Under the pieces are notes generated by a model that was given only the letters and a program-made list of their open reading frames with translations, ran no database searches and was not told the origin of the DNA. Source: a virus (Duplodnaviria; Heunggongvirae; Uroviricota; Caudoviricetes). From it: DNA of 64,000 nucleotides. The stretch is from the IMG/VR virus record IMGVR_UViG_3300029969_000011. One strand, given 5' to 3'. Shown in pieces: positions 9,752 to 45,435 of the stretch. The translations under genes and the position numbers were made by a program. How positions within the stretch are numbered: position 1 is the stretch's first letter; each line of letters starts with the position of its first letter.

Positions 9752-10684
9752 TTATCTGCTCTTAAGCATATCTCTTACGTATGTCATTGTAAGGCTACCG
9801 CAAATCTTACCAAAGTTCTCGCAAGCTGCGACTACCTCTGGCTCCTCCTTACGGCAATCCTCATACATCATCTTAGGAAGTACCTTTGCGATTGCTCCCA
9901 TATCGTGCTCGTCCCAATCAGGTCTAAGCTGACCCTCATCGACAAGCTTCTGAAGACACTTCTCAGTTCTACGAGCAGTTGCAACACTTGCTATGTACTG
10001 TCTCTCAGCCTCTCTCTTCTTGAGCTCCTCTGGGTCTACAGGCTTGTGATGGTCCTGATGAACCTCGGAAAACTTCTCTGCGACAATCTTAAGGTATGAA
10101 GGAGTTCTGCTGTTCTTGTTGTCAAGTCTGTCCTGAGACTTAATAACGACGCCCTCACCACAAGGCTCTGCGCCGAGCATAGACTGACCTACAAGCTGGT
10201 AAACAGTATCCCAACCTCTGAACTCACCTGTGTAGAAGATAGGAACAAAGTAGATTACCTGCTGAGTAAGCTGTACTGCGTTCTCAAGTCCCTTGAAGAT
10301 TGCGTATGTGTCCTCGTGAGGGAGGTACTCCTCTGTCTGAGTATCCCATACGTCGAACATATAGAAGTTCTTGTATCTGTTCTCAGGGTACTTGATTGTA
10401 TGCTTTGTAAGCCACTCGCCGAAGATTACATATCTGCCGTGCTGTGTAAGCATATCAATCTGAGAAACGTTGAGCTGCTGTGCCCAGTTCCAGAAACCGT
10501 TGAGTGTGTTAGCCTCATTAAGCTGGTTCTTACGAGAAAACGCAAGAACAGTATTTGTTGTGGGGTCATATGTGAATGATGCATTTGAGCCGTCAACCTT
10601 CTCGGTAATCGTTACCTGCTCACCGAGTGAAAAGACGGTATCATACTTCTCCTTGAAACGCTCGATATCTACATACTTTTTCAT
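9752..10684 (-). CDS. ATP-dependent RNA ligase (T4 Rnl2-like)
   Basis: 310 aa; N-terminus MKKY...; nucleotidyltransferase motif I TEKVDGSN (KxDG); size and layout like Rnl2. Confidence 0.65.
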   Translation of the reverse strand: MKKYVDIERFKEKYDTVFSLGEQVTITEKVDGSNASFTYDPTTNTVLAFSRKNQLNEANTLNGFWNWAQQLNVSQIDMLTQHGRYVIFGEWLTKHTIKYPENRYKNFYMFDVWDTQTEEYLPHEDTYAIFKGLENAVQLTQQVIYFVPIFYTGEFRGWDTVYQLVGQSMLGAEPCGEGVVIKSQDRLDNKNSRTPSYLKIVAEKFSEVHQDHHKPVDPEELKKREAERQYIASVATARRTEKCLQKLVDEGQLRPDWDEHDMGAIAKVLPKMMYEDCRKEEPEVVAACENFGKICGSLTMTYVRDMLKSR

Positions 10685-16346: not shown

Positions 16347-17828
16347 TTACTTCCAAGAATATACATCCTTAGAAAGTATCTTGACCATAGCCTCATAAGC
16401 ATTGCACTCGATGAGTTCTCTAAGGTCATTGAATGGACCTACACCAGAACCGCTGCAGTAACTGATGTTATCGTAGATAGTACCGATGTAGTTGTCCTGA
16501 CGTGCCTCAACATTCCAGCTTACGACCTTAGTCTCAGGGAGACCAGCCTCGCGAAGCTTCTTGTTCCACTTACCGACAATGGAGTCAGCAGTGTCTGGAC
16601 GTACGTCGTAGTCGAACTGACCGTCTGATATAACTACAAGAGCCTTTGGAACCTCGCGGGTTCTTACAGCAGTCTTATAGATAAGCTCGAAAGCCTTATC
16701 AAGGTTAGTGTTGTAACCCATGTCAGTTGACATTACCTTTCTAAGACACTCCTCAAGTCCCCAGCTATCCTCGAGGGATATGAAGTGAGGATTGTTAGTG
16801 AATGTCATATAAAGGTTGTGGTATGCACCCTTATTACGCTGAGCGAAGTAAGTTGCAAGACCAACAGAAGTTGCCATAGGCTGACCTAACATGGAGCCAG
16901 ATACATCTGCCATTACGACAACATCGTACTCTCCGCTAACGTAGTTAGGAAGAGCCTTCCACTGAGCTTCGTCTACAGGGTCAAGATGGTAACGAGAGCT
17001 ACCATACATATACTTGTACACGATGTCGTATGGGTAAAGAGTAGAAGCATTTACCTTAGCCTCGCCCTTTTCAAGGGAAGCCTTGTAAGCTGCAAATCTC
17101 TCCTGACAACGCTTGTTGTAAGTCTTGATATATCTGCTCATTGCAACAGATGGAACAGACTGGAAGTCTATCTCATCCCACTTACCAGCAGACATCTTTG
17201 TCTCGACGACGCCGATGTGTGCACGAAGCTTTGCAAGAGTCTTACGATATGTACGCTCGGTAAGACCGAGGTAACGACAAGCTCTACGACCAAGCTTACG
17301 AGTCTCCTGAGAAGAAGTATTGATAGATGGCATCCACTTAGCAAGGATGGAGATAGGCTGGTTCTTAGCCATACCCTCTGCATCAGCACGAAGCTGCTTG
17401 GAGATAAACTCCCATACCTTTGCCTCAATTACTGGATACTTTCCGTTAAGGAAGATGAAAAGGTCATCCCATCTACCTGTATCAACAATGGTCTGAAGAT
17501 TGCGGACAATCTTCTGAGGGTCGATACGACCGAGTTCTGCAAGCAGAATACGACCGATACGTCTCTCACCAAGACCACAGTCTCTGATGTTACGAGCGTA
17601 AAGGATAAGGTTATCTGCAAGAGTAGGGTTCTCCTGTCTTGCTGCCTTCCAATCGCTGATTATAGCGGAAGCATCTCTCTTTCTCATACCACCTATCTTT
17701 GCATAGATGTCAAGAAGAGCGCCGCCGTTTGTTGAACTATATGCGAGTCCACCGTTTTCGGTAAGTGTCTGATTAGCCATTGCCTTAGCTGCGTTTACGA
17801 AATTACTCATTACACATCTCTCCTTCAA
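16347..17828 (-). CDS. Ro60-like protein (TROVE-like helical N-terminal region + vWA domain)
   Basis: 493 aa; C-terminal vWA MIDAS VVVMADVSGSM (DxSxS); N-terminal ~300 aa helical region consistent with a TROVE module. Confidence 0.5.
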   Translation of the reverse strand: MKERCVMSNFVNAAKAMANQTLTENGGLAYSSTNGGALLDIYAKIGGMRKRDASAIISDWKAARQENPTLADNLILYARNIRDCGLGERRIGRILLAELGRIDPQKIVRNLQTIVDTGRWDDLFIFLNGKYPVIEAKVWEFISKQLRADAEGMAKNQPISILAKWMPSINTSSQETRKLGRRACRYLGLTERTYRKTLAKLRAHIGVVETKMSAGKWDEIDFQSVPSVAMSRYIKTYNKRCQERFAAYKASLEKGEAKVNASTLYPYDIVYKYMYGSSRYHLDPVDEAQWKALPNYVSGEYDVVVMADVSGSMLGQPMATSVGLATYFAQRNKGAYHNLYMTFTNNPHFISLEDSWGLEECLRKVMSTDMGYNTNLDKAFELIYKTAVRTREVPKALVVISDGQFDYDVRPDTADSIVGKWNKKLREAGLPETKVVSWNVEARQDNYIGTIYDNISYCSGSGVGPFNDLRELIECNAYEAMVKILSKDVYSWK

Positions 17829-17900: not shown

Positions 17901-18455
17901 TTAATTGCACCTGTCTTCGTAAAAGGTTGCTACCCTACGAAAAATAGAGTCTGGCGCCGCCACAAATTCCTTCTGCCACTCTCTTTTGAAAGTTTTGAAG
18001 TATTCATCGACTTCCATATCGCCGAAAACATAAACTCTTATATTATTTCGTCTTGAGAAAACTTGTCTATGATAGACTATCTCCTTAAAGACTTCTAAGT
18101 CTCGCTTATCCTTAATCGAAATCGTAAGTCCATCAATGCCCCAGAGGTTCTTTTCTCTTTTATAAAGATACTCATATAACTCATAAGCATTGGTATAAAC
18201 ATACACCTTTTTGATATTAGGATAAGTTCCTTTTAAAAAGGAAGCTGTCATACAAGGGTCTGCATATGCAAATGGTTCGCCGCCCGTCAAGAAAATGTTT
18301 TCAGCTTCTTCAAGCTCTTCATTCGTAACGACGGGAATTTCATTTACATTATACTGCTTATTGCAACAAAGCGGGCAATTTCTATCACAACGATTTGTAA
18401 TCATTATGTGAATATTACGCTTCGTTATATCTGTCTTTTCATTTAATTGAGCCAT
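17901..18455 (-). CDS. radical SAM activase, NrdG-like (anaerobic RNR activating protein) or QueE-like
   Basis: 184 aa; CDRNCPLCCN = CxxxCxxC followed by CN as in NrdG (CPGCYN); GGEP motif. Confidence 0.5.
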   Translation of the reverse strand: MAQLNEKTDITKRNIHIMITNRCDRNCPLCCNKQYNVNEIPVVTNEELEEAENIFLTGGEPFAYADPCMTASFLKGTYPNIKKVYVYTNAYELYEYLYKREKNLWGIDGLTISIKDKRDLEVFKEIVYHRQVFSRRNNIRVYVFGDMEVDEYFKTFKREWQKEFVAAPDSIFRRVATFYEDRCN

Positions 18456-18695: not shown

Positions 18696-18787
18696 TGGCG
18701 ACGAAGTGAGGTGTCGAGCCCCATACCGCTCATCACGGTACCAACTGCTTTCAAGGCAGTGCTCAAGGCCGCTTGAGATACTCCGCC
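18696..18787 (-). tRNA. tRNA-Ser (anticodon TGA), class II
   Basis: CCA+G73; T-arm; long variable arm (taccg/cggta); anticodon loop reads tttcaag on plus strand (codon TCA); acceptor pairs with two G-U. Confidence 0.5.
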
Positions 18788-18999
18788 ATTATCAAGATAC
18801 GTTTTTTTCTCGTGCCTCTGCCAATTGGGCTACTCCCCGATATGCTGCCCGAGACAGGAATCGAACCGTTACCCTCCGCCTTCTTCAGGCGGCGTGCACA
18901 CCTATGCACTACAAGGGCAGTCTGGTCGGGGAGGATGGGATTCGAACCCACACTCATCGTGCTCCTAACGCATTAATTGAGTAGCTGACGTATCTTTAT

Positions 19000-19075
19000 T
19001 GGTGCCGAGGGGGAGAGTCGAACTCCCTACGCCAAGCTCTTCAGGCTTGCGCTCTACCAGTTGAGCTACCTCGGC
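19000..19075 (-). tRNA. tRNA-Phe (GAA)
   Basis: Perfect cloverleaf: acceptor gccgagg/cctcggc, T-arm gggag-agtcgaa-ctccc, anticodon loop tcttcag (codon TTC), CCA encoded. Confidence 0.75.
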
Positions 19076-19208
19076 ATTATCAAGACAGTTATACTTATAA
19101 ACTCTACCCGTTGAGCTACGCGACGCGAACGCCACGGTGGGATTCGAACCCACATCCCCCTTTGTGCAAAAAAGAAAAAGTTTTAAGTGTTTTGCTGAAC
19201 TGCCTTAT

Positions 19209-19285
19209 TGGTCGGGGCGGTGGGATTCGAACCCACAGAATCGTGATTTTGAGTCACGCACGTTTACCAGTTACGTCACGCCCCG
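19209..19285 (-). tRNA. tRNA, anticodon CAA (Leu-type anticodon) with class I (short variable arm) body
   Basis: Perfect acceptor cggggcg/cgccccg, T-arm, D-arm acgt-ttaccagtt-acgt; anticodon loop ttttgag (codon TTG); 5-nt variable loop. Confidence 0.55.
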
Positions 19286-19412
19286 ATATAAAATGCAAAA
19301 TATGAAGAGGATACCACACCCTGCAGAGGCCCATATTTATTTATATCCCGCACCATAAGCTTCTTCGCGCTTCAATCCGTCGACTGTCCTCATGGCCATC
19401 CGTGCGGTTTTC

Positions 19413-19488
19413 TGGGTGGAAAGATGAGATTCGAACTCACACCTTCATGGGCCACAACCATGCGCTCTACCATTAAGCTACTCACCAC
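19413..19488 (-). tRNA. tRNA-His (GTG)
   Basis: Anticodon loop gccacaa (codon CAC); extra 5' G-1 and C73 discriminator + CCA characteristic of tRNA-His. Confidence 0.7.
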
Positions 19489-19595
19489 ATCAATTCCGAC
19501 TTTAACCCAAGTCGGCAGGGTTAAATAAAACCAAATCTGCCTCCACACAGTGGAGTTAGCTGTAGACAATAGCACTGAACATAACTATTCCTACT

Positions 19596-19671
19596 TGGTC
19601 TCGGTTATAGGACTCGAACCTATGACTTTCTCCTTGTAAGGGAGACACTCTCGCCGCTGAGTTAAACCGAG
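19596..19671 (-). tRNA. tRNA-Val (TAC)
   Basis: Perfect acceptor ctcggtt/aaccgag, T-arm atagg-actcgaa-cctat, anticodon loop ttgtaag (codon GTA). Confidence 0.7.
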
Positions 19672-19698
19672 ATTATCAAGACTCTCTATACCTTGCGG

Positions 19699-19772
19699 TT
19701 CCGGAAGGGGGATTCGAACCCCCATATGTACGATTTTAGGTCGTATGACTTAGCCACTTTGTCTATTCTGGA
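19699..19772 (-). tRNA. tRNA-like, anticodon region TAA with irregular loop (C33?)
   Basis: T-arm ggggg-attcgaa-ccccc, acceptor tccggaa/ttctgga; anticodon stem tacga/tcgta with loop ttttagg. Confidence 0.35.
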
Positions 19773-19920
19773 AAGGAATATTGCTGAAGAGTCTTTATTT
19801 GGTTCGGGTATGCTTATCGGAGTCAAGTACTCGCAGTTCCTCTTTCGAGGTATTTTCTTCGGAGTAAAGACCTTAAGGTTCGCGTAACCTCTCGTGCCCT
19901 AACCCATATCCGAAACCCGA

Positions 19921-19997
19921 TGGTGCCGTTAGAGGGACTCGAACCCACACTAACCAGTTCCTAAGACTGGCGCCTCTGCCAATTGGGCTATAACGGC
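19921..19997 (-). tRNA. tRNA, anticodon TAG (Leu-type anticodon) with class I, Gln-like body
   Basis: Perfect acceptor gccgtta/taacggc + CCA, anticodon stem ccagt/actgg loop tcctaag (codon CTA), 5-nt variable loop, 3-bp D-stem. Confidence 0.5.
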
Positions 19998-20061
19998 ATT
20001 GTTAAACAGTTCGAGTTACGGTCAAACTGAAGGTAAGCACCGATTAAGCAGCCAGATACTC

Positions 20062-20292
20062 CTATTCAGAATAATCAAGCTTTTCAATTCTTTTCATATC
20101 GGAATATGTAACCTGCTTCCAACCACTCTTAGGGTGGTTAAAGGCACACATCCAGCAGGAACAATGAATTTTACCTTTGGCTAACTTTCCGTCGCAATCA
20201 CAAAACCAATGATGAGTTTCATCAATGATATGTCTTTTGCGAGCTATGTGTTGTCTTCTCTGATAACGATAGTATGCTCTATCTCTTTCCAT
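20062..20292 (-). CDS. Arg-rich zinc-finger protein inside the tRNA array
   Basis: 76 aa; basic N-terminus, HxxxC...CxC...CxxC cluster. Confidence 0.4.
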   Translation of the reverse strand: MERDRAYYRYQRRQHIARKRHIIDETHHWFCDCDGKLAKGKIHCSCWMCAFNHPKSGWKQVTYSDMKRIEKLDYSE

Positions 20293-20432
20293 TGTGCCGC
20301 CCTCCGAAAAATTATAATAACGAATATAGGCAACCCACTACTTACTTTCCTTACCAGCGTAAATTAAGCACCTTCGCTACGTATTGCTACTACCTCAGTA
20401 TTTAATTTACTATGCCCTTCCCTCGATATTCG

Positions 20433-20975
20433 TTACTTAGTAATTCTGTTTGCGATACCAGAAGCAGCGTAGCTGTCTGGCTTGATAGCAACCTCGAAGC
20501 CGCAAGTCTTAATCCAAGAGGTAATCTCAGTAATAAGCTGATTTGTCTTACCTGCGTGACCAATGTCAGCGTGGACAGCGAAAGTAAATCTTCCGTCATT
20601 AGACATTTGCTCAAGGTCAATATCATAGTCGATAAGAGCATAAGCAAGAGCATCTACGAAACCTGTTGCGTTCTCAATAGAACGAGAAGTCTCTTCCTGT
20701 ATCTTAGTCTTAAGAACTCTTATCTTTGGTATATCTTGCTTGCGATAGAAGAAAATGCCGCCATCACCGATACGGTGAACAGCAATTACTTCCACCATTC
20801 TTGTGCACTTGTGGTTCTGGCTATCTGTACCCACAGTTATTTCGTATGAGGCGTTAGGTGCCTTTGCGATGTAGTCGGCTACAATAGAGCCTATCTGTGA
20901 ATAACGAACCTTCTCACCATTACCACGAGTAAATATCTTCTCGGTAATCACGGTTAATCTCTCCTTTATATTCAA
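20433..20975 (-). CDS. YkuK/DUF458-like RNase H-fold protein
   Basis: 180 aa; VGTDSQ and AVHADIGH motifs resemble the GTDSQ/HADSN signatures of the YkuK family. Confidence 0.4.
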   Translation of the reverse strand: MNIKERLTVITEKIFTRGNGEKVRYSQIGSIVADYIAKAPNASYEITVGTDSQNHKCTRMVEVIAVHRIGDGGIFFYRKQDIPKIRVLKTKIQEETSRSIENATGFVDALAYALIDYDIDLEQMSNDGRFTFAVHADIGHAGKTNQLITEITSWIKTCGFEVAIKPDSYAASGIANRITK

Positions 20976-21107
20976 ATATTCAAGACAGTTATGTTAGCTA
21001 CCTTTTGATTAAAATTCAAATGCTTTTAAAGAATTGCTGGACTGTCTTAGTGGTGATAATACGTGCCGCGGCACCACAGACCGCTATATGTGGTCGCACG
21101 TATTCTC

Positions 21108-21194
21108 TGGTCGGCTCGGTGGGACTCGAACCCACACGCCCTTGCGGGCACCAGCTCCTTAGGCTGGCGCGTCTGCCAATTCCGCCACGAGCCG
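21108..21194 (-). tRNA. tRNA-Leu (anticodon AAG), class II
   Basis: 87 nt; perfect acceptor cggctcg/cgagccg + CCA; long variable arm gccc-ttg-cgggc; anticodon loop tccttag (codon CTT). Confidence 0.55.
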
Positions 21195-21262
21195 ATTTAT
21201 CAAGACTCATCTTGTGTTTTTATATGCCCAAAAAACTTTCAGAGTTGCTGCTGAGTCTTATC

Positions 21263-21339
21263 TGGTCGGAGATGCGGGACTCGAACCCACGGCCTCTCGC
21301 TCCCAAGGCGAGCGCTCTACCAAACTGAGCTAATCCCCG
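21263..21339 (-). tRNA. tRNA-Pro (TGG)
   Basis: Anticodon stem ctcgc/gcgag, loop tcccaag (codon CCA); D-arm gctc-taccaaact-gagc; CCA encoded. Confidence 0.65.
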
Positions 21340-21409
21340 ATTAATTGGCGGCTTCAGGGACGCTACAAGATAACCAACCGCCAGAGTTATCACGCACTTA
21401 ATGTCCCAA

Positions 21410-21486
21410 TGGTCGGCGAGATGGGATTCGAACCCACACTGAATGGATTTTAAGTCCATTGCCTCTGCCTGTTGCGCTACTCGCCG
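21410..21486 (-). tRNA. tRNA, anticodon TAA (Leu-type anticodon) with class I body
   Basis: Perfect acceptor cggcgag/ctcgccg + CCA; anticodon stem atgga/tccat loop ttttaag (codon TTA); 5-nt variable loop. Confidence 0.5.
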
Positions 21487-21606
21487 ATAAGCCTATTAAA
21501 TAGGCTACAAGATATAACCCCTTTTACCGCGGGGCAGTCTCCCCAATATAATTGGTTGGGGAGATAGGAATTGAACCTACAAAAGTGAGTTGCTGATATA
21601 TCTTAG

Positions 21607-21683
21607 TGGTCACGCCAGCGAGGCTCGAACTCGCATTTTAGCCTTGAAAGAGCTACTTCCTACACCTGTTAGAAGATGGCGCG
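21607..21683 (-). tRNA. tRNA-Glu (TTC)
   Basis: T-arm gcgag-gctcgaa-ctcgc, anticodon loop ttgaaag (codon GAA), CCA encoded. Confidence 0.6.
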
Positions 21684-21835
21684 ATTCATCAAGATGTGCT
21701 TTTACCTCTCATGAGGATTTGAACCTTACCGTCCCCTTTTTGGGGCTGTGCTACCAGATTACACCATAACGCCGAGAGGATTTAAAATGGCGGCGTTAAA
21801 AACTTTAAAGAAAAAGTTGCTGACACATCTTTATT

Positions 21836-21909
21836 TGGTTGCGCAGACAGGACTCGAACCTATATCAACGGATAATGACTCCGTTATGCTACCTTTGCAC
21901 TACCGCGCG
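21836..21909 (-). tRNA. initiator tRNA-fMet (CAT)
   Basis: Anticodon loop taatgac (anticodon CAT); 5' CGCGCGG / 3' CTGCGCAACCA with C1·A72 mismatch, as in bacterial initiator tRNA. Confidence 0.6.
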
Positions 21910-22760
21910 TTCTCTTTATTTTCTATAATTATTATAGCATAAATTATAAAAAATGTCAAATTTTTGATTTCTAAGTCATTTCGTAAGCACTCTCACCGCG
22001 TGAAGGTAGACTTAATTGAGAGTATTTCTTCAACAATCTTGGGTGCCGCCACATCTCCTGCACACAGGAGACAGGGTACTCGAACCCCTCCATCGCCAGT
22101 TGCTGAAAGGAATTTCAACCTAATCTCATTAGTTATAAAGCCACTGAGCTGTAGCTATGCGAATAATTTGCCGCAATCAACGGGCGACTATTCTAATCGC
22201 CGTCATAACCAACACAAGTTATGAACCATTGTAATGTCGTCAGGTTCCCACACTTACGCAGTAAACGCGCCGCTTAACCACTTGGTTTAGGTATGTTCAT
22301 AACCAAGAAATTTTCCCTTTTACATCGTCAGCAGTAGATGTCGTAATTTTATCGGTACTTCCCCGAATGGACATTGCGTGCCTATCGTACTCACGGTAAT
22401 GTACGTAACCGCTGCCGTGCCAGCCAATACACGGATTTATACTGCCATCACACAGTCGGGCAGGTCTGTGATGGGTCTCTGCCCAATTTGGTTTTTGTGG
22501 TTTTAAACAGTCCAATGAGTAAACCTCAACTCAACTGTAGAGAATATTTGGTGGTTCGCTCTCTCTCAGCGAAGGTGTAAAGGGAGTTTAAACCACTTCC
22601 TCGTGGGGTTTTAACGTCTTTTCCTTGACAAGTCTCGCCGCAACCAGTACCATTTAAGGTACGCCAATCACTACGGGTTGCACATCCTTACTTTACCTGC
22701 CCAACAGGTCGGCGGTTGGACCCGCCAGTGTCCCTTTTATTCTCTTTAAGTAATTGGCAA

Positions 22761-22835
22761 TGGTGTGGGATAGGAGAATCGAACTCCCACCGCCTGTTTG
22801 GAAGACAGGAATACTGACCGTTATACGAATCCCAC
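22761..22835 (-). tRNA. tRNA-Gly (TCC)
   Basis: Perfect acceptor gtgggat/atcccac + CCA; anticodon stem cctgt/acagg, loop ttggaag (codon GGA). Confidence 0.65.
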
Positions 22836-23045
22836 ATTAGTTCTTATTTTTAAGTATAATTTATTATAACATATTCTAAGAAAAAAGTCAAATTTTTAAT
22901 AGTGATTGTCTTTGTAGGGGTCTGTCTTCTTCTTATCATGGGTTGCGGCGATGATGTCTGGCATAACCTCTATGAGCTTCCAAAGAAGTACGGTTACGCA
23001 AACAACTATTAGGTACTGCATCAGACAGACCTCCTTTCAAGACAT

Positions 23046-23120
23046 TGGTTTCTCCGCTTGGATTCGAACCAAGGAATGGCAGTTTTAGAGACTGCTGTCT
23101 TAAGCCTCTTGACGACGGAG
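23046..23120 (-). tRNA. suppressor tRNA, anticodon CTA (reads TAG); tRNA-Gln-like body
   Basis: Perfect acceptor ttctccg/cggagaa + CCA; T-arm cttgg-attcgaa-ccaag; anticodon stem gcagt/actgc, loop tttagag = C-U-CUA-A-A; 3-bp D-stem, variable loop CATTC as in E. coli tRNA-Gln. Confidence 0.7.
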
Positions 23121-23125
23121 AATTA

Positions 23126-23201
23126 TGGTTGCCGCTCTGGGAATCGAACCCAGTAAGACGGAGTTAGAGTCCGTTGTCCTCGCCAACTAAACGAAGCGGC
23201 A
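23126..23201 (-). tRNA. second suppressor tRNA, anticodon CTA (reads TAG)
   Basis: Perfect acceptor tgccgct/agcggca + CCA; T-arm ctggg-aatcgaa-cccag; anticodon stem acgga/tccgt, loop gttagag (anticodon CUA); 3-bp D-stem. Confidence 0.65.
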
Positions 23202-23342
23202 AAATTCTCCAAGACGCCTTTACATTTACCTTTTAAACATTTTAAGTGTTCTATTGTAAGAAATGATTGCAGGATGCGTCTTTCATTCTTATAAAATAAT
23301 TATAACATATTTTATAAAAATTGTCAAATTTTTGAGTGCTTA

Positions 23343-23606
23343 TTAGTCTACAGCAGTTGTAGTAGTTGTCTCTGTTGTAGTCTCTTCTGCCTCAGTTTCT
23401 GTGGTAGTAGTTGTTTCTTCGGTAGCCTCAGTTGTCTCCTCTGCTACTGTTGTAGCTTCAGTTGTTTCAGCTTCTGTTGTTTCAACTTCTGTTGTAACTA
23501 CTGTTGTGGTTTCACTGTTGCTTCCGCTATCCTTTGATGTATCGCAAGAAACAAAAGTTACAGCCATAGCGCCTGCCATAAGACAAGCTAAAATAGCCTT
23601 CTTCAT
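23343..23606 (-). CDS. small secreted lipoprotein, Thr/Glu-rich
   Basis: 87 aa; signal peptide + TFVSC lipobox-like; (ETT)n low-complexity tail; located inside tRNA array. Confidence 0.45.
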   Translation of the reverse strand: MKKAILACLMAGAMAVTFVSCDTSKDSGSNSETTTVVTTEVETTEAETTEATTVAEETTEATEETTTTTETEAEETTTETTTTTAVD

Positions 23607-23949
23607 TGTGTTTCACCTCTTTGCTTTTTAAATAAGAACCCTTGCTTGTATATCGAAACCTCGTATTATATCCACAGTCACATCGTGATTTACTCCCACA
23701 CAAGAGGGCTACCATGGAGAAGGGGCACGCCCCGAGATGGGCGGCAATAATCATAGAACGCTATACGAAAAGCATAACGTACTAAGGAACTCTTTCCACA
23801 CGTGGTGGATGAGCTATCGTATTTCTACGACCCCGCACAGCGGGTAGAAGTCATAATGACCTCTTAACAGTAATTTTGATTGAGCCGCGTTTCCTCTTTT
23901 AAGTCTGACTAACTGCGGTAAAAAATCCAGACTTCAAAATTACTTTTAA

Positions 23950-24043
23950 GAAATCATTATGGCGCGGTCGGGGAGACTCGAACTCCCACACCGATTGCTC
24001 GATTACTCATAGTTTAGCAAACTACTGCCTTACCAAATTAGGC
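23950..24043 (-). tRNA. tRNA-Ser (GCT), class II
   Basis: CCA + G73; perfect acceptor gcggtcg/cgaccgc; long variable region; anticodon loop ttagcaa (codon AGC). Confidence 0.5.
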
Positions 24044-24188
24044 TTACGACCGCATTATCAAGATACGTTTTTTCGATATACGTTGTTCTACCAGTTGAAC
24101 TACTCCGCCATATTGGCGACGGAGGCAGGACTTGAACCTACACCTACGGCGTGATAGGCAATCTATTGCTTGCTGACGTATCTTAGTT

Positions 24189-24266
24189 TGGTGTGCCTGA
24201 TGGGACTCGAACCCATGACCCCCTGATTAAAAGTCAGGTGTTCTATGCCAACTGAACTACAGGCAC
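24189..24266 (-). tRNA. tRNA-Lys (TTT)
   Basis: Perfect cloverleaf; acceptor gtgcctg/caggcac; anticodon loop ttaaaag (codon AAA). Confidence 0.75.
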
Positions 24267-24366
24267 ATTAACATCCGCTGAGCATCTTATTGGAACGCTT
24301 TCACCATGCGAGACCTCTATTGTTTATTTGCTGGCAGAATTTGAACCATTAACCATAGCGAATATT

Positions 24367-24442
24367 TGGTGGGACGCCTGAGATTCGAACTCAGATAAGC
24401 TCGGTTATGAGCCGAGTGCACTAACCATTGTACTAACGTCCC
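24367..24442 (-). tRNA. elongator tRNA-Met (CAT) or tRNA-Ile2 (CAT, lysidine)
   Basis: T-arm ctgag-attcgaa-ctcag; anticodon stem ctcgg/ccgag, loop ttatgag (anticodon CAT). Confidence 0.6.
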
Positions 24443-24490
24443 ATTAAAGAAAGGAAAGGGGCATACTTTCAAGATGGCTATGCCAGACCA

Positions 24491-24564
24491 CTAAGTTATT
24501 GGCTTCGGCAAAGGGAGTCGAACCCCTATCAACAGAGCCAAAATCTGTTGTCCTACCATTAGAC
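24491..24564 (-). tRNA. tRNA-Gln (TTG)
   Basis: G73 + CCA; anticodon stem acaga/tctgt, loop gccaaaa (codon CAA); 3-bp D-stem GTC/GAC. Confidence 0.65.
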
Positions 24565-24601
24565 GATACCGAAATCTATGGAGTCATAAAGACTCCAAAT
24601 A

Positions 24602-27775: not shown

Positions 27776-28681
27776 TTAGTGCGCCGCCTTATCAGCTTCG
27801 TGAAGACGCTCAAGGTCACGCATAAAGTCTGCACTATAACGAGCTGCCATCTTCTCCATATACTTCTCGCCCTTGTAGTGGTCCATATGGTGGTTGATTA
27901 AAAGAACGATATAGTGATTACGGTCAGAGCAACCAGTATGAGATAAGTAGAAGTATGCTCCTACATTCTCATGGTTATAGAAGTGTGCCTCTTCTGTAGG
28001 GTTGTTGCGAGCGTCGTGATAAACCTTGCAGTAAGGCTTACCAATATCGTGGAAGAGTGCCGCAGTTCTTACTAAGTCAGAACGAGTTGAGTCTCTTACT
28101 GTCTTATTCATCTCGTCAACGATATACTTCTCTGCCGCTCTCATATGTGCGCCGATAGTTAAAGAGTGGTGATGATTATCGTGAGGGATATTATCAGCTT
28201 CGAAAAGCATTTCTCCTATTACATCGAAGTTATTATCATTACCGAAAGTCATTATCTTATCCCAACCCTCAGAGTAGTCAGGTACCTCGAAGCTTCTAAG
28301 CATACGGTCGAGAACGAACTCAGGAACGACACGCTCACGGGAAGCATTACGCTCCTTTACAACCTCGAAAGGAGGTACGCAAAGAACGCATATCTTTACA
28401 AGGTCAGGTATCTTAGATAACTCCTTTAAGAAGCCTATACGACGCTTAGCATTGACGTTTGTTGCGTCATAGTAAACATCGACATTAGCCTTTAAAAGGT
28501 CGCGAGTACGAGTTAACATTAAGTTGAATACTTCTGCGTTATGAGTCTGGTCATTAACGTCTCCAAATACGTCCTGCCGTATCTGGTCAGAAGATACATA
28601 AGCTGCTTCAGAGAAGTAAGCCTTATATAAAGTAGACTTACCAGAGCCAGGGAGTCCTACAGTGAAAAATAATCTTGGCAT
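27776..28681 (-). CDS. polynucleotide 5'-kinase (T4 Pnk-like) fused to an HD-domain phosphohydrolase
   Basis: N-terminus LFFTVGLPGSGKST plus downstream kinase region resembling T4 Pnkp; C-terminus HHHSLTIGAHM...LFHDIGK = HD motifs; start ATG 28681 with AAGGAGA RBS. Confidence 0.6.
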   Translation of the reverse strand: MPRLFFTVGLPGSGKSTLYKAYFSEAAYVSSDQIRQDVFGDVNDQTHNAEVFNLMLTRTRDLLKANVDVYYDATNVNAKRRIGFLKELSKIPDLVKICVLCVPPFEVVKERNASRERVVPEFVLDRMLRSFEVPDYSEGWDKIMTFGNDNNFDVIGEMLFEADNIPHDNHHHSLTIGAHMRAAEKYIVDEMNKTVRDSTRSDLVRTAALFHDIGKPYCKVYHDARNNPTEEAHFYNHENVGAYFYLSHTGCSDRNHYIVLLINHHMDHYKGEKYMEKMAARYSADFMRDLERLHEADKAAH

Positions 28682-28683
28682 AT

Positions 28684-28908
28684 TTAGTCTCCTTTCCATT
28701 TTACAAATCCGCCAATGTTAATAATGAAATATGCTATATACATTAAAACCATTGGCAAATTAAATACTCCTACAATATTGACCGCTATCCATAGGAAGTT
28801 TCCTATTATCCAAGCTATCCAACCAATACGCTTTTTTAACATAATGAGGATATTTCCGCCGAGACTAAAGATAGCTCCAAGAATAGAAAGTATCAATATC
28901 AAATTCAT
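28684..28908 (-). CDS. small multi-TM membrane protein
   Basis: 74 aa, three hydrophobic segments. Confidence 0.4.
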   Translation of the reverse strand: MNLILILSILGAIFSLGGNILIMLKKRIGWIAWIIGNFLWIAVNIVGVFNLPMVLMYIAYFIINIGGFVKWKGD

Positions 28909-32104: not shown

Positions 32105-32815
32105 TTAGAAAATTGTTTCTTTACTATCATCTGCAATCATACGCACATCATCGTAAAGGATTATTCCGTCTGGAGTTACCTTATCAACGTGGTAATGACC
32201 ACAATAATGTTGTTTATAAATAGTTTCATTTAAAACCTTATCAAGCATAAGGTCAGATACAGTAGATTTGAAACCAAGAAAGTTACAAATCTTTGAGCCG
32301 CCAGTGTGAGAAAAGACATAATCTACTGTGCCGCGATAGCAAGAAAGATTAGCCTTTGCTATCTCAACTTCTTCCTCTGTTATTTGCTCCTGCTCCCACC
32401 AAGAGGTATGTGGATGACGATAACGCTTACCGTCAATAAATATATCGTGTGAGTCTGCCCCATTCATAACAAGACAATCCTGACCACACAGATGATATAT
32501 TTTACCAGTCATAGCGTAGTAGATAGAATCAGAAACTTGATAGCACTCTTCGCCGCCGAATGTAGTGGTAGGAAGCTGTTCAATTCTGTCGTAGTTCTCG
32601 TGATTACCAAGGACACAGAAAGTTGTCCAAGGCTTATCGTTCAAAAACTTTTGCCAAAATCTCTCCTGAGAACTATCAGCCCAAATGAAACCTGCGTCTC
32701 CCATTATGACAAGAATATCTTCTTTAGTCAAATCATTACATTTAAAATGGCGGCTATTTAATTTTGACATATCGAGACCACCGTGGGTGTCTCCTGTGAC
32801 AAATAATCTTGCCAT
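32105..32815 (-). CDS. calcineurin-like metallophosphoesterase
   Basis: 236 aa; GDTHG...GDAG...GNHEN motifs. Confidence 0.65.
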   Translation of the reverse strand: MARLFVTGDTHGGLDMSKLNSRHFKCNDLTKEDILVIMGDAGFIWADSSQERFWQKFLNDKPWTTFCVLGNHENYDRIEQLPTTTFGGEECYQVSDSIYYAMTGKIYHLCGQDCLVMNGADSHDIFIDGKRYRHPHTSWWEQEQITEEEVEIAKANLSCYRGTVDYVFSHTGGSKICNFLGFKSTVSDLMLDKVLNETIYKQHYCGHYHVDKVTPDGIILYDDVRMIADDSKETIF

Positions 32816-40703: not shown

Positions 40704-41807
40704 TTAAACTGGTTCGTTGTATATAAATTCTGTTAATGAATTGCCATTATAAATAACTTCTGTCATTTGATTTCCGTCATAATAAAATGGAACACCAGTT
40801 GGAGGTGGTGGCGGATTTTCTGGTATATCAAGCATAACTGGAATATACGGGAATCCGTTATTTCTGTTCGGGTCAATGTGCCAATCTGTTGTTGCAGCTG
40901 AGTCAGTGCTGATTATGAAACCTTTGCTGTCAAGGTCGCTTTTGGACTTCATTTCTATTGTAGTTGCGCCAATTGTGCCTGTAGGTAATGTACCGCTGTA
41001 TTTATCAGTATTAACTAAGACGGAACTCATTTGTCCATAGTCCAAACGGAATCCGCCGGAAATATCGGCATTTATAACAGTCTTTTGAAAAGTAGTAATA
41101 TAAGAAAATCCAGCTATACCAGATACGTTACCTTCAATATAACAATAGTAAAAAGCACCATATAACTCATAATCATTGTTTTCATAGGTTGCACGAATAT
41201 TACAATATCTAATTCCAGCTTGCCAGTTCACTCCATTTGTAATCGAGCCGTCACCATTAAATGTTAGATTAAAACTACATACATCGATATATCCTAACAT
41301 ATATGTAACGTCAATTATAGCATTATATTCTTGACCAACAGAATATTTCTAAGCTGCTTCAAGACTACCTAAAAAACGACAATACCTTATAAAAGTTCCA
41401 CTACCAGAAGTTTGTGCTGAAGCCAATAATGCCACCGAAGCTCTCTATGAAGTATTTCCAGTCATATGTGCTGCAACACCATTAGAATCGACTATGAAAT
41501 CAATGAAATCAAGATATTCAACTCGACCACTGGCTTCATGTCCAGAAATTATAAATCCATAGTAGCTATAAGTGCCTGAAGTATTAGTAACTTTGGCATT
41601 TTTTATCTACCAGCCATTACCGTTGATAAATCCACGCAGCGGTATGTTATGCACTTCTCCATCTGTGTAGTAGTCACGCATATCAAATACGCCGCCACCC
41701 TCTGGTAATTCAGTATACTTATTATCTGCTGTGGTGCATTGTAGAAATTCTTCCCAAGTCGTAGGCTTGTAAGGGTCTGCAGATGTGCCGCTGCCCGTTA
41801 TCGCCAT
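40704..41807 (-). CDS. tail-associated structural protein with in-frame TAG codons
   Basis: Frame-2 ORFs 40704..41300 and 41607..41807 joined across TAGs; ATG 41805-41807 with GGAGGTGG RBS overlapping the TAA of the upstream fibre gene (TAATG). Confidence 0.45.
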
Positions 41808-44800
41808 TAATTTCCACCTCCATCGACAAAGTACATAATACCAGGTTCAGTTGCTTCAGAAGCAGACTAAACAACTTGAATTGGAATTTGAGTTAATAAT
41901 GCTTTGAGTGCTTCAAGCTATTTGAAACTAAATGATATTTCTTCATTAGTATTTGGATTACTTAAAGTAATACCACTTTCACCGCCTACCACTTCTGCTT
42001 TAATTCTAATACCATTATATAATCTAAATTCTGAATCATCAGTAATTTCTACAATAGGATTATTAGCATAGCTATTCAAGTGAGCATTACTATTATAGTA
42101 ATATCTATATACTATTGTAATAGAATCGTTAGAATTTAAAATAATACTCTCATACTGGTCAACAATCTATCCACTTAAGAAAGTTTCAAAATCAGCATAG
42201 TCAGCACCTGCTTCAAACTGTTTAATAAATTCATATTTATCAGTTAAATCATAAGTCTCAGTAGGAGTAAAAGTATAGCTCAAATGAGAATATGCTCCTT
42301 GGCTCCAACCTTCTCTAAGTACACAGTTAACAGGTCCGTATGCCTGAATAATTGGAGACTAATCCCAAGTCTCAGTACCAACTCTATCTGCTGTTTGAAT
42401 TGGACGATACCATTCTTTACCTAAATGTTGTGCCGCGCCCTAATATACAGAAGTTGTTGCTACTTTGTATCTTGGATGTTCTGCCGCATCATAGGTTCCT
42501 GTTTCTGCATTAGAGAAATCATAAGCTCCTACATTATAAGGTTTAGAAGAACTCTGATTTAAGAAGGTTTGAATATCTTCTGGTAAATCAGCATAAGGAG
42601 TATTAGGATAATTAAGTTTGTAATCAGTAGTATTATTTACAGTATTTTTAACTAAATAACTGTCGTATTCTGCAATAAAATTCTTTACCTTATAATAATA
42701 GTATCCATATCTTTGCTGATAATAAGTAACTGTACAATTAGTTCCAGCAACAACTCGGTCACATTTAAAAGCATTTCTAAAGAATGCTTGTACTTTACTA
42801 TTATTAAAGAAAGTGCTTGCGCTGGTTGATATATATGAATCAATATAAACTGTATATTCAGAAGAAACTAAATCTTTAACATTTTTAACTTCAAGTGACT
42901 CAATGTACTCATATAAGCTAACTTCAGACCAAGAAGTGTAAGCATTTTTTAATACTATCTGATAATTACTATTATCTTCTCCTCCTACTATATTACGGAC
43001 TCCCTTCTTAATGCCTGCTTCCGCACCGCTCATATTAGAAGAGCCTATATATTTATAAATATAATCCTTTTTATCAGTAACAGTATGAGTTTTTGTAATT
43101 GTTATATTAGTAATATCCAAATAATATGAACCTAAATAATAACGATATGTTGTAGAACTACCAGAATAACGTGATAATTGAGCATCTGATTTAAGGGTAA
43201 GAGCAAAATTATTTCCGTATCCAAAAGTATCTCTTATCCAGTCTTTAAATTCTTGTGACTATACTAATGTACTTTCCGTATAATAAGTATTAGAATTAAA
43301 ATACTAAGTTGTATTCCAGTTAATTATTTTAACATTATTAATTGTTAAAGTTTCTGTATATTTTATTGGAAGTTTTGTTTTAGATGTTCCAGTAAATCTA
43401 TTCCAAGTGTAATCATCATTATGAGGGTCGCCATTTGGTAGAGTAGTTGCATTTTTTAATTCAGTCGCAAATTGAGTTTCAATATCAGAAGTTGACATAT
43501 TGCTTAAATCAGTATCAACAACAATTTCGCCCTAAACAGAAATTTCCTTAGTTGTTTCATACATTTTTGGATAATGCTCATATTTAGTTCTACTATACTT
43601 TTCAGCTACAGGATTGACTTCGCTATTTCTTAAAATTACAGTACCGCTCCAAGACTCTAAATGAGTATTGCCGTCAATCTAAATAAAAGAATCATTACCT
43701 TCAAATATTCCCTTAAATCTATCCCATTGACAAATAATCTCACTATGTTTTGGTTCTACTGTTAAACCAAAAGCATACTTAGGGTCAAATTTAATTGCTG
43801 TAGTTCCACTTGGTTCAAAAAAGATAGAAGTCTCTGCAGAACTATCTGGACCAAATCGGAAATATGTACTACTTCCGTCATTAGGAACAATGTCTCCAAT
43901 AAGTTTAGAATTTCCTCCAATTCCATATTTAATTTGAGTTGTACTATTTCCACCACAAGAAGCTACAATACCAATAGTAGAACTATCTCTTGTTGCTAAT
44001 TGCATACCCAATCTACCTGATTCTGAAGAACAGATATGCATACTAACAGGTCCTTCATAAGCAACTAAAGGATAACCTATATACTTTTTCATTATATTTA
44101 AATCATCAAACTTAGTATTTATACTACAATGAGGATGGTCATAATCAAAAGTTCCAATCTAACTATGTTCAATACAGTTAGCTCTTGTACTATAATCTAC
44201 CCAACTACCATTAAAGAAAATATTTGAACTACCATCCCATCCATCATGGTCTTTTCCATTAGTAATGGCACCACTACCAAAAACCATCTGTCCTCTATCG
44301 ACAGAAACACAAGCAGGAAATTCTTCAGTACCTCTCATTCTTACCATAGACCCTGGATGAATATAAACTTGGGTTCTGTAACCTTCCTATAATTTAATTC
44401 CATGATTAGTATCGTGATATCCATTAGAATACTGACCACCATTAATATGAATATCAGCATTACCAGATAAAATTGCTGTCGCATTATTTCTCATTTGTAA
44501 AGTAGCTCTTTCATAAATAGAAACTGTTGCTCCGTCATGAATTTGGAGTATAGGAGAATTATCATTATCTCTGCCACTAAAAGGATTAATATACTTTCTA
44601 ATATCTTCTCTGTCGGGATGAGCCTATCCAAGCCAATAATTAGGTCCTGGATTAGCATACATATCAATTAAACAGTTACCTCTCATTGAAATAGCCGGAG
44701 TGCTACGAGGGTCTGCTCCGCCAAGCATTTCAATTTTTGCAGTTCCTTTAATTTTAATAGTAGGGCTTGTCAAAGTTTCTTCAAAGTCTTCTCCGCCCCA

Positions 44801-45358: not shown

Positions 45359-45435
45359 TTATTATGACCTCCTATCATAGTGTGCCGCCCCTCAGATTTT
45401 TAGAAGGGCGGCGCATTTAATTTATATTATTCTCT

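What the first reader, a model, noticed from the sequence alone, without database searches (positions are those of the whole stretch)
19209..21486. Class-I (short variable arm) tRNAs carrying leucine-type anticodons CAA, UAG and UAA
tRNAs at 19209-19285 (CAA), 19921-19997 (UAG), 21410-21486 (UAA) and probably 19699-19772 (UAA, irregular loop) fold into canonical cloverleaves. They have perfect acceptor stems and encoded CCA, but only 4-5-nt variable loops. Bacterial tRNA-Leu is invariably class II with a long variable arm. The array's tRNA-Leu(AAG) at 21108-21194 does have a long arm. The UAG one has a Gln-like 3-bp D-stem. These may be non-canonical Leu decoders, decoders charged with another amino acid, or relatives of the suppressor lineage.
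Basis: seen in the sequence. Interest (0 to 1): 0.65.

Follow-up and report, generated by a model that had tools for sequence, protein, structure and literature searches.

The report
Short-armed leucine tRNAs in a phage
A recoded phage carries several leucine tRNAs that lack the usual long extra arm. They are genuine, but they belong to a "type I tRNA-Leu" family already shown to accept leucine in Streptomyces and present in classic phages such as T5, so they are uncommon rather than new.

Summary
ARAGORN and Rfam find tRNAs at 19209-19285 (CAA), 19697-19772 (UAA), 19921-19997 (UAG) and 21410-21486 (UAA). All are on the minus strand with 4-5-nt variable loops. The tRNA-Leu(AAG) at 21108-21194 has a long arm.

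The UAG and 21410 UAA genes are 80-84% identical to a large, covarying type I tRNA-Leu family. That family keeps Leu features (U8-A14, A15-U48, G18G19, A73). In 286 anticodon-free pattern matches (166 viral, 120 bacterial, mostly Actinomycetota) it carried only Leu anticodons. Phage T5 and Felix-O1-like phages carry such genes, annotated simply as tRNA-Leu.

Fan et al. 2019 showed that Streptomyces LeuRS leucylates a type I tRNA-Leu. Across four related phage arrays, each Leu slot is type I in one phage and type II in another. Leu codons in window genes sit at conserved Leu positions.

I conclude these are Leu-accepting isoacceptors, not reassignment tRNAs or suppressors. The 19697 gene, with C33 in its anticodon loop, is clade-specific and remains unexplained. 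Novelty: new members of a known kind. Open questions are which host LeuRS enzymes charge them, and why phages favour the armless form.

The parts
19921..19997 (-). Type I tRNA-Leu(UAG), 77 nt. It has A9, a G10C11C12/G23G24C25 D stem, D loop CAAUUGGCAGA, variable loop UUAGU (U48), A73 and an encoded CCA.
   Evidence: (60.2 bits). It is 84% identical to a viral type I Leu(UAG) in L069 and 80% identical to an Actinomycetota type I gene in L194. It matches the family pattern used.
21410..21486 (-). Type I tRNA-Leu(UAA), 77 nt. It has A9, D loop CAACAGGCAGA, variable loop UCAGU, A73 and an encoded CCA.
   Evidence: (54.8 bits). It is 84% identical to viral family members and 81% to bacterial ones.
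19209..19285 (-). Type I tRNA-Leu(CAA), 77 nt, on a different body. It has G9, a 4-bp D stem ACGU/ACGU, D loop AACUGGUAA (A14, A15, G18G19), variable loop AUUCU (U48), A73 and an encoded CCA.
   Evidence: (67.2 bits). The nearest annotated relatives are 77-nt tRNA-Leu genes of T5-like phages, at 78% identity over 64 ungapped nt. The same array slot is 77 nt in L001 and L407 but an 87-nt class II gene in L002.
19697..19772 (-). Divergent class I tRNA with a UAA triplet in an irregular anticodon loop CCUAAAA (C33). It has U1-A72, an A4/C69 mismatch, A14, A15, U48 and A73, and no encoded CCA. Its identity is uncertain.
   Evidence: (51.1 bits). The loop is conserved, with compensatory stem changes, in L001 and L407. 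A whole-IMG/VR pattern scan found it only in those two related contigs, L407 and L408, the latter being the same contig as L001. It has no match in GenBank phages.
21108..21194 (-). Canonical class II tRNA-Leu(AAG), 87 nt, with variable hairpin GCCC-GCAA-GGGC. It serves as the internal reference for the Leu-type D arm.
   Evidence: Its D loop AAUUGGCAGA, its G26 and its T arm 5' strand and loop (GUGGGUUCGAGUCCC) are identical to those of the type I UAG gene, and the anticodon stem differs only at the 31-39 pair.
18844..18919 (-). Weak tRNA-like sequence that ARAGORN calls Leu(AAG). It is probably a decayed gene.
   Evidence: It scores 33.7 bits. It has acceptor mismatches, G at position 33 and no CCA. 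Its MFE fold is not a cloverleaf. Relatives L001 and L002 have no confident tRNA in this slot.
18696..24573 (-). The whole tRNA array. It contains about 20 genes, including two CUA suppressors at 23046-23122 and 23126-23201 and a divergent class II tRNA-Ser(UGA) at 18696-18787. An RNaseH-like ORF at 20433-20975 interrupts it.

Best explanation
These genes are type I (short variable loop) leucine tRNAs. They are transcribed from the minus-strand array and processed like the other tRNAs.

I infer that the host leucyl-tRNA synthetase charges them with leucine. That enzyme does not read the anticodon. It recognises the discriminator end and the tertiary core (U8-A14, A15-U48, G18G19 with the T loop), all of which these tRNAs keep.

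They then decode UUA/UUG (UAA, CAA) and CUA/CUG (UAG). The class II AAG tRNA decodes CUU/CUC. Together they give this AT-rich, TAG-recoded phage a complete Leu decoding set of its own.

Shown here: the structure, the family membership, the restriction of the body to Leu anticodons, the interchange of types I and II in sister phages, and that Leu codons mean Leu.

Inferred: expression, charging by this phage's unidentified host (probably a Firmicute), and the benefit to the phage. That benefit could be codon supply, independence from host tRNA-Leu, or both.
For: 1. The tRNAs are real, with Rfam E-values of 1e-9 to 1e-13 and ARAGORN cloverleaves.

2. The family is large and under structural selection. 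In 261 distinct members the acceptor stem is 95% paired and the anticodon stem 97% paired. Shuffled partners give 59% and 54%. Each stem position shows 3-6 pair types.

3. With the anticodon left free, 166 viral and 120 bacterial matches carry only UAA, CAA, UAG, AAG, GAG or CAG.

4. Leu identity nucleotides are conserved in the family: A73 in 98-99% of members, U48 in 100%, U8 in 88% of viral and 99% of bacterial members, plus A14, A15 and G18G19. All four window genes have them.

5. There is an experimental precedent. S. coelicolor type I tRNALeu(CAA) is leucylated by ScoLeuRS with kcat/Km of 6.25 s-1 uM-1, against 14.2 for a type II isoacceptor, and its gene could not be knocked out (PMC6614811).

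6. In the related arrays of the window, L407, L001 and L002, each Leu slot (UAA, AAG, UAG, CAA) is type I in one phage and type II in another. L407 CAA-77 and L002 CAA-87 share the D stem and T arm and differ mainly by the variable hairpin. L002 UAA-85 and AAG-77 share a near-identical 5' part, 26 of 27 nt.

7. At columns conserved in homologues, the window's Leu codons align with Leu. In the helicase: TTA 6/6, CTT 6/7, CTC 3/3, CTA 3/3, CTG 2/2, TTG 1/1. In the amidase: TTA 6/6, CTT 10/12, CTC 4/5.

8. Codon use fits the tRNA set. CTT is 41% of Leu codons and TTA 28%, rising to 46% in late genes.
Against: - No charging or expression data exist for this phage.
- E. coli LeuRS could not leucylate the S. 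coelicolor type I tRNALeu(CAA) in vitro, and a LeuRS from another Streptomyces species could not charge it unless given the ScoLeuRS LSD domain (PMC6614811). Acceptance of armless tRNA-Leu is therefore not universal.
- The host here is unknown. The nearest cultured relatives by helicase are Firmicutes phages at 36% identity or less.
- The codon test uses two genes and mostly phage homologues.
- The CAA gene and the 19697 gene lie outside the core family (69% identity or less). The 19697 gene has C33 and an acceptor mismatch.
Confidence: 0.8

Rival explanations
1. Anti-defence variant. The tRNAs are still leucine tRNAs, but the armless form is specifically selected. Host nucleases that recognise or cut the long variable arm of class II tRNAs cannot destroy them, so the phage keeps decoding Leu when host tRNA-Leu is attacked.
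For: [quoted passage not shown] T5 tRNA-Tyr escapes through a different variable loop (PMC13096335; PMC12673091 is listed).
- Mammalian SLFN11 and SLFN14 cut type II tRNAs selectively (abstracts listed).
- In a scan neutral to variable-region length, type I made up roughly two thirds of viral tRNA-Leu(UAA) matches: 61 plus at least 14, against 42 type II. In bacteria the body appears almost only in Actinomycetota.
- T5 and Felix-O1-like phages carry only type I Leu tRNAs, although their annotated Ser and Tyr tRNAs (one Ser flagged as a possible pseudogene) are class II in length.
- The window also encodes an RNA ligase, a P-loop kinase fused to an HD domain, and a metallophosphoesterase. This is a tRNA-repair-like gene set.
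Against: - I found no report of a bacterial defence nuclease that targets the tRNA-Leu variable arm.
- The phage keeps a class II Leu(AAG) for its most used Leu codon.
- Sister phages switch freely in both directions between the two types, which looks more like neutral interchange than directional selection.
- Actinomycetota use the same form as an ordinary chromosomal gene.
Confidence: 0.15
2. Sense-codon reassignment or deliberate mistranslation. The class I bodies are charged by a synthetase other than LeuRS, so UUA, UUG or CUA are read as another amino acid in phage genes.
For: - A class I body with a Leu anticodon is how known reassignments look, for example yeast mitochondrial tRNA-Thr(UAG) and Ashbya tRNA-Ala(UAG) (PMC7609411).
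- The phage already recodes TAG to Gln in late genes.
Against: - No G3:U70 and no G73. All four genes have A73, A14, A15-U48 and G18G19.
- The same body carries four to six different Leu anticodons and no others in 286 matches.
- Leu codons align with conserved Leu.
- Type I and type II genes occupy the same array slots in sister phages.
- The Streptomyces homologue accepts leucine (PMC6614811).
Confidence: 0.03
3. Non-translational or decaying genes. Some of these are pseudogenes, decoys for host enzymes, or processing signals in the array transcript, and not working decoders.
For: - The array holds clearly degenerate tRNA-like pieces at 18844-18919 and 19101-19157, plus others.
- The 19697 gene has C33, an acceptor mismatch and no CCA.
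- MFE z-scores are weak, from -0.7 to -2.4.
Against: - The CAA, UAG and 21410 UAA genes have perfect acceptor stems, canonical 7-nt loops with U33 and a purine at position 37, an encoded CCA and high covariance-model scores.
- Orthologues in L001, L002 and L407 keep pairing through compensatory changes.
- Even the 19697 gene keeps its loop and its pairing across three phages.
Confidence: 0.05

Closest known systems
Type I tRNALeu(CAA) of Streptomyces coelicolor (Fan et al. 2019, NAR, PMC6614811)
   Same: It is a bacterial-type tRNA-Leu with a 5-nt variable loop that coexists with class II isoacceptors. It has a Leu anticodon and the U8-A14 pair. It was shown to be leucylated by the single cellular LeuRS. 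My scan finds the same kind of gene, sharing its body with the window's UAG and UAA genes, as lone chromosomal genes in many Actinomycetota.
   Different: - The Sco variable loop is ACAGC (C48). The window and family members have NNAGU (U48, pairing with A15).
- The window genes are phage-borne, in an array, in a 38% G+C genome whose host is probably not an actinomycete.
- Charging was not tested here.
tRNA-Leu genes of coliphage T5 and of Felix-O1-like phages (e.g. Erwinia phage phiEa21-4)
   Same: Both T5 tRNA-Leu genes (UAA and UAG) are 77-nt type I with A73. phiEa21-4 has three (CAA, AAG, UAA) with the CAAUUGGCAGA D loop or the close variant CAACUUGGCAGA. They sit in phage tRNA arrays next to class II Ser and Tyr genes and are annotated simply as 'tRNA-Leu'.
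   Different: - Different phage families and hosts (Proteobacteria).
- T5 UAG keeps a class II-like core (G9, AUG-G...CAU) with variable loop GUUUU, and T5 UAA has A9 with the same GUUUU loop. The window's UAG and UAA genes instead have the A9/GCC-C/NNAGU core.
- Sequence identity to the window genes is only about 72-78%.
Canonical bacterial class II tRNA-Leu
   Same: A73, A14, A15-U48, G18G19, the D loop sequence, the T arm and the Leu anticodons. The window's type I UAG and class II AAG genes share an identical D loop, the T arm 5' strand and loop, and an anticodon stem that differs at one pair.
   Different: - The 9-19-nt variable arm is replaced by 5 nt.
- In the main family, positions 9, 12, 13 and 23 change together. 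Type I has A9, C12, C13 and G23. Type II has G9, G12, G13 and C23.
Animal mitochondrial tRNA-Leu (type I)
   Same: A short variable loop with Leu identity. Human mitochondrial LeuRS charges the Streptomyces type I tRNA (PMC6614811).
   Different: The lineage is unrelated and structurally relaxed. ScoLeuRS does not charge human mitochondrial tRNALeu(UUR) (PMC6614811). There is no sequence relationship to the phage genes.
T5 tRNA-Tyr with an altered variable loop that escapes Retron-Eco7 and Septu
   Same: A phage-encoded version of a class II tRNA whose variable region differs from the host's (PMC13096335).
   Different: That case concerns tRNA-Tyr, which keeps a long arm. A defined nuclease and a rescue phenotype are known for it. 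Nothing comparable is known for tRNA-Leu.

Membership tests
Type I (short variable loop) tRNA-Leu | Cloverleaf with a 4-5-nt variable loop instead of an extra arm | tested here: met
   ARAGORN structures, Rfam full-length matches of 74 nt and MFE folds without an extra hairpin, for 19209, 19697, 19921 and 21410.
Type I (short variable loop) tRNA-Leu | Leucine anticodon in a canonical 7-nt loop (U33, purine at 37) | tested here: met
   The loops are CUCAAAA (19209), CUUAGGA (19921) and CUUAAAA (21410). The feature is not met by 19697, whose loop is CCUAAAA with C33.
Type I (short variable loop) tRNA-Leu | Shared body of the main family: A9, GCC-C D stem, AAYNGGCAGA loop, NNAGU variable loop, GUGGGUUCGA T arm | tested here: met
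   19921 and 21410 match the scan patterns and are 80-84% identical to viral and actinobacterial members. 19209 and 19697 do not match (69% or less) and are separate type I bodies.
Type I (short variable loop) tRNA-Leu | The body is used only with Leu anticodons | tested here: met
   The anticodon-free pattern gave 166 viral matches (TAA 139, TAG 13, CAA 12, GAG 1, AAG 1) and 120 bacterial matches (TAA 69, CAA 36, TAG 13, CAG 2).
Type I (short variable loop) tRNA-Leu | Aminoacylation with leucine by LeuRS | not testable with these tools
   Shown for S. coelicolor tRNALeu(CAA) only (PMC6614811). E. coli LeuRS failed on that substrate, so host-specific testing is needed.
Canonical bacterial class II tRNA-Leu | Long variable arm (more than 10 nt, stem-loop) | tested here: not met
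   Absent from the four genes. Present in 21108-21194.
Canonical bacterial class II tRNA-Leu | E. coli-type identity set: A73, A14, A15-U48, G18G19 with U55C56, U54-A58 (as listed in PMC6614811 and PMC9976931) | tested here: met
   Read directly from the sequences. All four genes have U8, A14, A15, G18G19, U48, T loop UUCGA and A73.
tRNA-Gln / amber-suppressor lineage of this phage | Anticodon YUG or CUA, with the U1-A72 end shared by the window's Gln(UUG) and both CUA tRNAs | tested here: not met
   The anticodons are CAA, UAG and UAA. The 1:72 pairs are C-G, G-C and C-G for 19209, 19921 and 21410. Suppressor 23046 has G15 and C48, not A15-U48. Only 19697 has U1-A72, and its similarity to the suppressors is weak.
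Sense-codon reassignment tRNAs (class I body with a Leu anticodon charged with Thr, Ala or Ser) | Identity elements of another synthetase (e.g. G3:U70, G73), and the affected codons falling at positions conserved for another amino acid | tested here: not met
   The 3:70 pairs are G-C, C-G, G-C and C-G, and all four genes have A73. Leu codons align with conserved Leu in helicase and amidase alignments.

The most novel reading that the evidence does not exclude
Loss of the long variable arm from tRNA-Leu is a recurrent, selected trait of phages. It makes the phage's own leucine decoders invisible to host enzymes that recognise class II tRNAs by that arm, such as defence nucleases of the PtuAB/Septu kind or Schlafen-like kind.

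This would explain three things. Type I is the majority form of tRNA-Leu(UAA) in viral contigs. Phages such as T5 and the Felix-O1 group carry only type I Leu genes, although I know of no type I tRNA-Leu in their hosts. And this phage clade has lost the arm independently in different array slots.
Probability: 0.15. Interest if true: 0.75.

Novelty: new member of a known kind. Interest (0 to 1): 0.3.

Why it matters
For annotation, these genes can be called tRNA-Leu. They should not be flagged as code changes or suppressors.

More broadly, the scans show that armless tRNA-Leu is not a Streptomyces curiosity.
- It is common in Actinomycetota chromosomes.
- It is the more frequent form of tRNA-Leu(UAA) in my sample of viral contigs.
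- It occurs in phages of E. coli, Salmonella, Erwinia, Lactobacillus, Vibrio and Aeromonas.

The only biochemical study reports that E. coli LeuRS cannot charge the Streptomyces type I tRNA. That makes two questions directly testable with T5 or Felix-O1-like phages:
1. Which LeuRS enzymes accept type I tRNA-Leu, and through which nucleotides? A15-U48 versus C48 is an obvious candidate.
2. Does losing the arm protect phage tRNAs from host nucleases?

Tried and rejected
- A protein-based search for relatives with the RNaseH-like ORF inside the array found nothing in IMG/VR. The DUF2828-VWA neighbour worked instead.
- A distant DNA search of the whole array in GenBank phages gave only scattered single-tRNA hits and no related cultured phage.
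- The 19697 gene has no match in GenBank phages.
- A PDB sequence search with the DUF2828-VWA protein found nothing, so its Ro60-like nature is untested.
- Literature searches for an explicit description of type I tRNA-Leu in phages found none. One search was wasted by a loose term setting. The 1970 T5 tRNA paper is not held.
- I rejected a Gln-like identity for the UAG gene. Its 3-bp D stem and loop are those of the class II Leu gene next to it.
- I rejected a simple one-step deletion origin for the main family. Positions 9, 12, 13 and 23 differ systematically between type I and type II. The T5-like body and the L407 CAA body do look like direct arm deletions.
The taxonomic spread (mostly Actinomycetota) is therefore a sample, not a census.
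Full report
**Observation**

ARAGORN finds 19 tRNA genes in the window, all on the minus strand between 18.8 and 24.6 kb. Rfam's tRNA model confirms them.

The four genes in the finding are real:
- 19209-19285: CAA, 67.2 bits.
- 19697-19772: UAA, 51.1 bits.
- 19921-19997: UAG, 60.2 bits.
- 21410-21486: UAA, 54.8 bits.

Each has a variable loop of 4-5 nt. The CAA, UAG and 21410 UAA genes have perfect acceptor stems, A73 and an encoded CCA. The tRNA-Leu(AAG) at 21108-21194 is an 87-nt class II gene with a 4-bp variable hairpin. MFE folding reveals no hidden extra arm in the short genes.

The 19697 gene is irregular. Its loop is CCUAAAA (C33), it has an A4/C69 mismatch, and it has no encoded CCA. 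A further ARAGORN call, Leu(AAG) at 18844-18919, is weak (33.7 bits), does not fold as a cloverleaf, and looks degenerate.

**What the bodies are**

The UAG gene and the class II AAG gene of the same window share several parts. These are an identical D loop (AAUUGGCAGA), position 26, the T arm 5' strand and loop, and an anticodon stem that differs at one pair.

I built a pattern from the UAG and 21410 UAA genes, combining the Leu-type D arm, a short variable loop and the T arm.

I then left the anticodon free. All 166 viral and all 120 bacterial matches carried Leu anticodons and nothing else:

| Set | TAA | TAG | CAA | CAG | GAG | AAG |
|---|---|---|---|---|---|---|
| Viral (166) | 139 | 13 | 12 | 0 | 1 | 1 |
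| Bacterial (120) | 69 | 13 | 36 | 2 | 0 | 0 |

The bacterial matches are almost all Actinomycetota. In 111 of 118 loci the gene is the only tRNA within 8 kb, so these are ordinary chromosomal genes and not prophage arrays.

Across 261 distinct members the acceptor stem is 95% paired and the anticodon stem 97% paired. With shuffled partners the figures are 59% and 54%. Most stem positions show several pair types.

The family keeps these nucleotides:
- A73 in 98-99% of members.
- U48 in 100%.
- U8, in 88% of viral and 99% of bacterial members.
- A14, A15 and G18G19.
- A 5-nt variable loop, NNAGU.

This is the E. coli-type leucine identity set as listed in PMC6614811 and PMC9976931, minus the arm. 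The window's UAG and 21410 UAA genes are 80-84% identical to both viral and actinobacterial members.

**It is known**

Fan et al. 2019 (PMC6614811) describe a type I tRNALeu(CAA) in Streptomyces coelicolor.
- The single ScoLeuRS leucylates it at about half the efficiency of a type II isoacceptor.
- Its gene could not be knocked out.
- Human mitochondrial LeuRS also charges it.
- E. coli LeuRS does not charge it.
- The paper does not mention phages.

In GenBank phages the same kind of gene is common and is annotated simply as tRNA-Leu.
- Erwinia phage phiEa21-4 (Felix-O1-like) has three, with anticodons CAA, AAG and UAA.
- Coliphage T5 has two Leu tRNA genes, UAA and UAG. Both are 77-nt type I, while its annotated Ser and Tyr genes are class II in length.

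I also ran a scan that does not constrain the length of the variable region. Among the first 120 viral tRNA-Leu(UAA) stretches with a GGCAGA D loop, about two thirds were type I: 61 new matches plus at least 14 re-hits. The other 42 were type II. The two types differ at a fixed set of core positions. Type I has A9, C12, C13 and G23. Type II has G9, G12, G13 and C23.

I found no paper that discusses type I tRNA-Leu in phages.

**Evidence from this phage's own relatives**

Three related contigs carry the syntenic array: L001, L002 and L407.

| Leu slot | Window | L407 | L001 | L002 |
|---|---|---|---|---|
| UAA | short | slot absent from the stretch held | long | long |
| AAG | long | long | absent | short |
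| UAG | short | short | long | short |
| CAA | short | short | short | long |

Two comparisons show how the forms relate.
- L407 CAA (77 nt) and L002 CAA (87 nt) share the D stem and the T arm, and differ mainly by the variable hairpin.
- L002 UAA (85 nt) and L002 AAG (77 nt) share a near-identical 5' part (26 of 27 nt). T5 Leu(UAG) has the same D arm.

Both forms therefore serve the same slots in one phage clade. The arm has been lost more than once.

**Do Leu codons mean Leu?**

I aligned the window's UvrD-like helicase with 77 homologues of less than 65% identity. At conserved columns the window's Leu codons fall on Leu: TTA 6/6, TTG 1/1, CTT 6/7, CTC 3/3, CTA 3/3 and CTG 2/2. The amidase gives TTA 6/6, CTT 10/12 and CTC 4/5.

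None of the four genes has G3:U70 or G73.

Leu codon use is CTT 41%, TTA 28% (46% in late genes), CTC 15%, TTG 9%, CTA 4% and CTG 4%. The tRNA set (AAG, two or three UAA, CAA, UAG) covers all six codons.

**Conclusion on mechanism**

These are leucine isoacceptors that lack the extra arm. I infer that host LeuRS charges them through the acceptor end and the tertiary core, and that they read UUA/UUG and CUA/CUG.

Charging in this phage's host is inferred, not shown. The host is unknown. The nearest cultured relatives by helicase are Firmicutes phages at 36% identity or less. The Streptomyces study shows that not every LeuRS accepts an armless substrate.

Reassignment and suppressor readings are not supported.

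A further reading remains open. The armless form could protect phage tRNA-Leu from nucleases that target the variable arm, by analogy with tRNA-Tyr and Retron-Eco7/Septu (PMC13096335). The free switching between types in sister phages argues for near-neutral interchange instead.

**The irregular 19697 gene**

Its CCUAAAA loop is conserved, with compensatory stem changes, in L001 and L407. A whole-collection scan found it only in those two related contigs, L407 and L408, the latter being the same contig as L001. It has A14, A15, U48 and A73 like Leu tRNAs. It also has U1-A72, like the window's Gln and CUA tRNAs. Its reading and identity remain unexplained.

**Context**

- TAG is a sense codon in the late block at about 40.7-56.4 kb.
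- TAG aligns with invariant or near-invariant Gln at three conserved amidase positions. A 56%-identical homologue uses CAA at those positions.
- Two CUA tRNAs lie in the array.
- The window also encodes an RNA ligase, a P-loop kinase fused to an HD domain, a metallophosphoesterase, and a DUF2828-VWA protein next to the array.

**Verdict**

The novelty is modest. The interest lies in the open questions of LeuRS compatibility and of why phages favour the armless form.

Noticed in passing
window 40704-56419 (minus strand); tRNAs at 23046-23122 and 23126-23201: TAG is read as a sense codon in the late or structural gene block. Stop-to-stop ORF coverage in the 4-kb bins from 40 to 60 kb rises from 0.51-0.70 to 0.97-0.99 when TAG is read through. 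The ORFs there, of 228-1184 codons, hold 4-18 in-frame TAGs each, whereas genes to the left of 40 kb have few. TAG aligns with Gln in 106-108 of 108 homologues at three conserved amidase positions, and a homologue in L301 uses CAA at those positions. Two CUA suppressor tRNAs lie in the array.
   Followed up: partly
window 9752-10684 (-), 27776-28699 (-), 32105-32815 (-): An RNA-repair-like gene set is present. It consists of an RNA ligase (PF09414), a P-loop kinase (AAA_33) fused to an HD phosphohydrolase domain, and a calcineurin-like phosphoesterase. This resembles the kit phages use to repair tRNAs cut by host anticodon nucleases.
   Followed up: no
window 16347-17828 (-), 24056-24168 (-), 19101-19157 (-): A DUF2828 + DUF7788 + VWA protein sits next to the tRNA array. 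From memory, this architecture resembles Ro60/Rsr. There are also two weak, sub-threshold matches to the YrlA (Y RNA-like) family inside the array. A PDB sequence search found nothing, so the Ro-like reading is untested.
   Followed up: partly
window 19697-19772 (-); L001 7215-7287; L407 8390-8464: This tRNA has a conserved anticodon loop CCUAAAA, with C33 where U33 is nearly universal, and compensatory changes in its stems across three related phages. It was found only in this phage clade. What it decodes is unknown.
   Followed up: partly
L001 3618-3711 versus window 23046-23122: The CUA suppressor in relative L001 is a 94-nt class II tRNA with A73 and a long variable arm. The window's counterpart has a similar D arm and anticodon stem-loop but a 4-nt variable loop. 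Loss of the arm is therefore not confined to Leu tRNAs in this clade, and the amino-acid identity of that suppressor is unclear.
   Followed up: no
window 18696-18787 (-): This is a divergent class II tRNA that default ARAGORN missed and Rfam matched to the tRNA-Sec model below threshold (43.2 bits). Its loop CUUGAAA gives anticodon UGA, it has G73 and CCA, and it is syntenic with Ser(UGA) in L001, L002 and L407. It is most likely tRNA-Ser(UGA).
   Followed up: partly
window 18844-18990, 19101-19157, 21540-21600, 21700-21791: The array holds several tRNA-like fragments with T-arm-like GGTTCGAATCC motifs, or low-scoring candidates. They look like decayed tRNA genes between the intact ones.
   Followed up: no
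window 21108-21194 (-); L002 7909-7985; L133 3001-3078: tRNA-Leu with an A34 anticodon (AAG) recurs in these phages. To my knowledge, A34 tRNAs other than tRNA-Arg(ACG) are uncommon in bacteria. Whether A34 is deaminated to inosine here is unknown.
   Followed up: no
window 20433-20975 (-) and 17901-18455 (-): An RNaseH-like (PF04308) ORF lies inside the tRNA array. A small radical-SAM-like ORF lies just downstream of it. Their functions were not examined.
   Followed up: no
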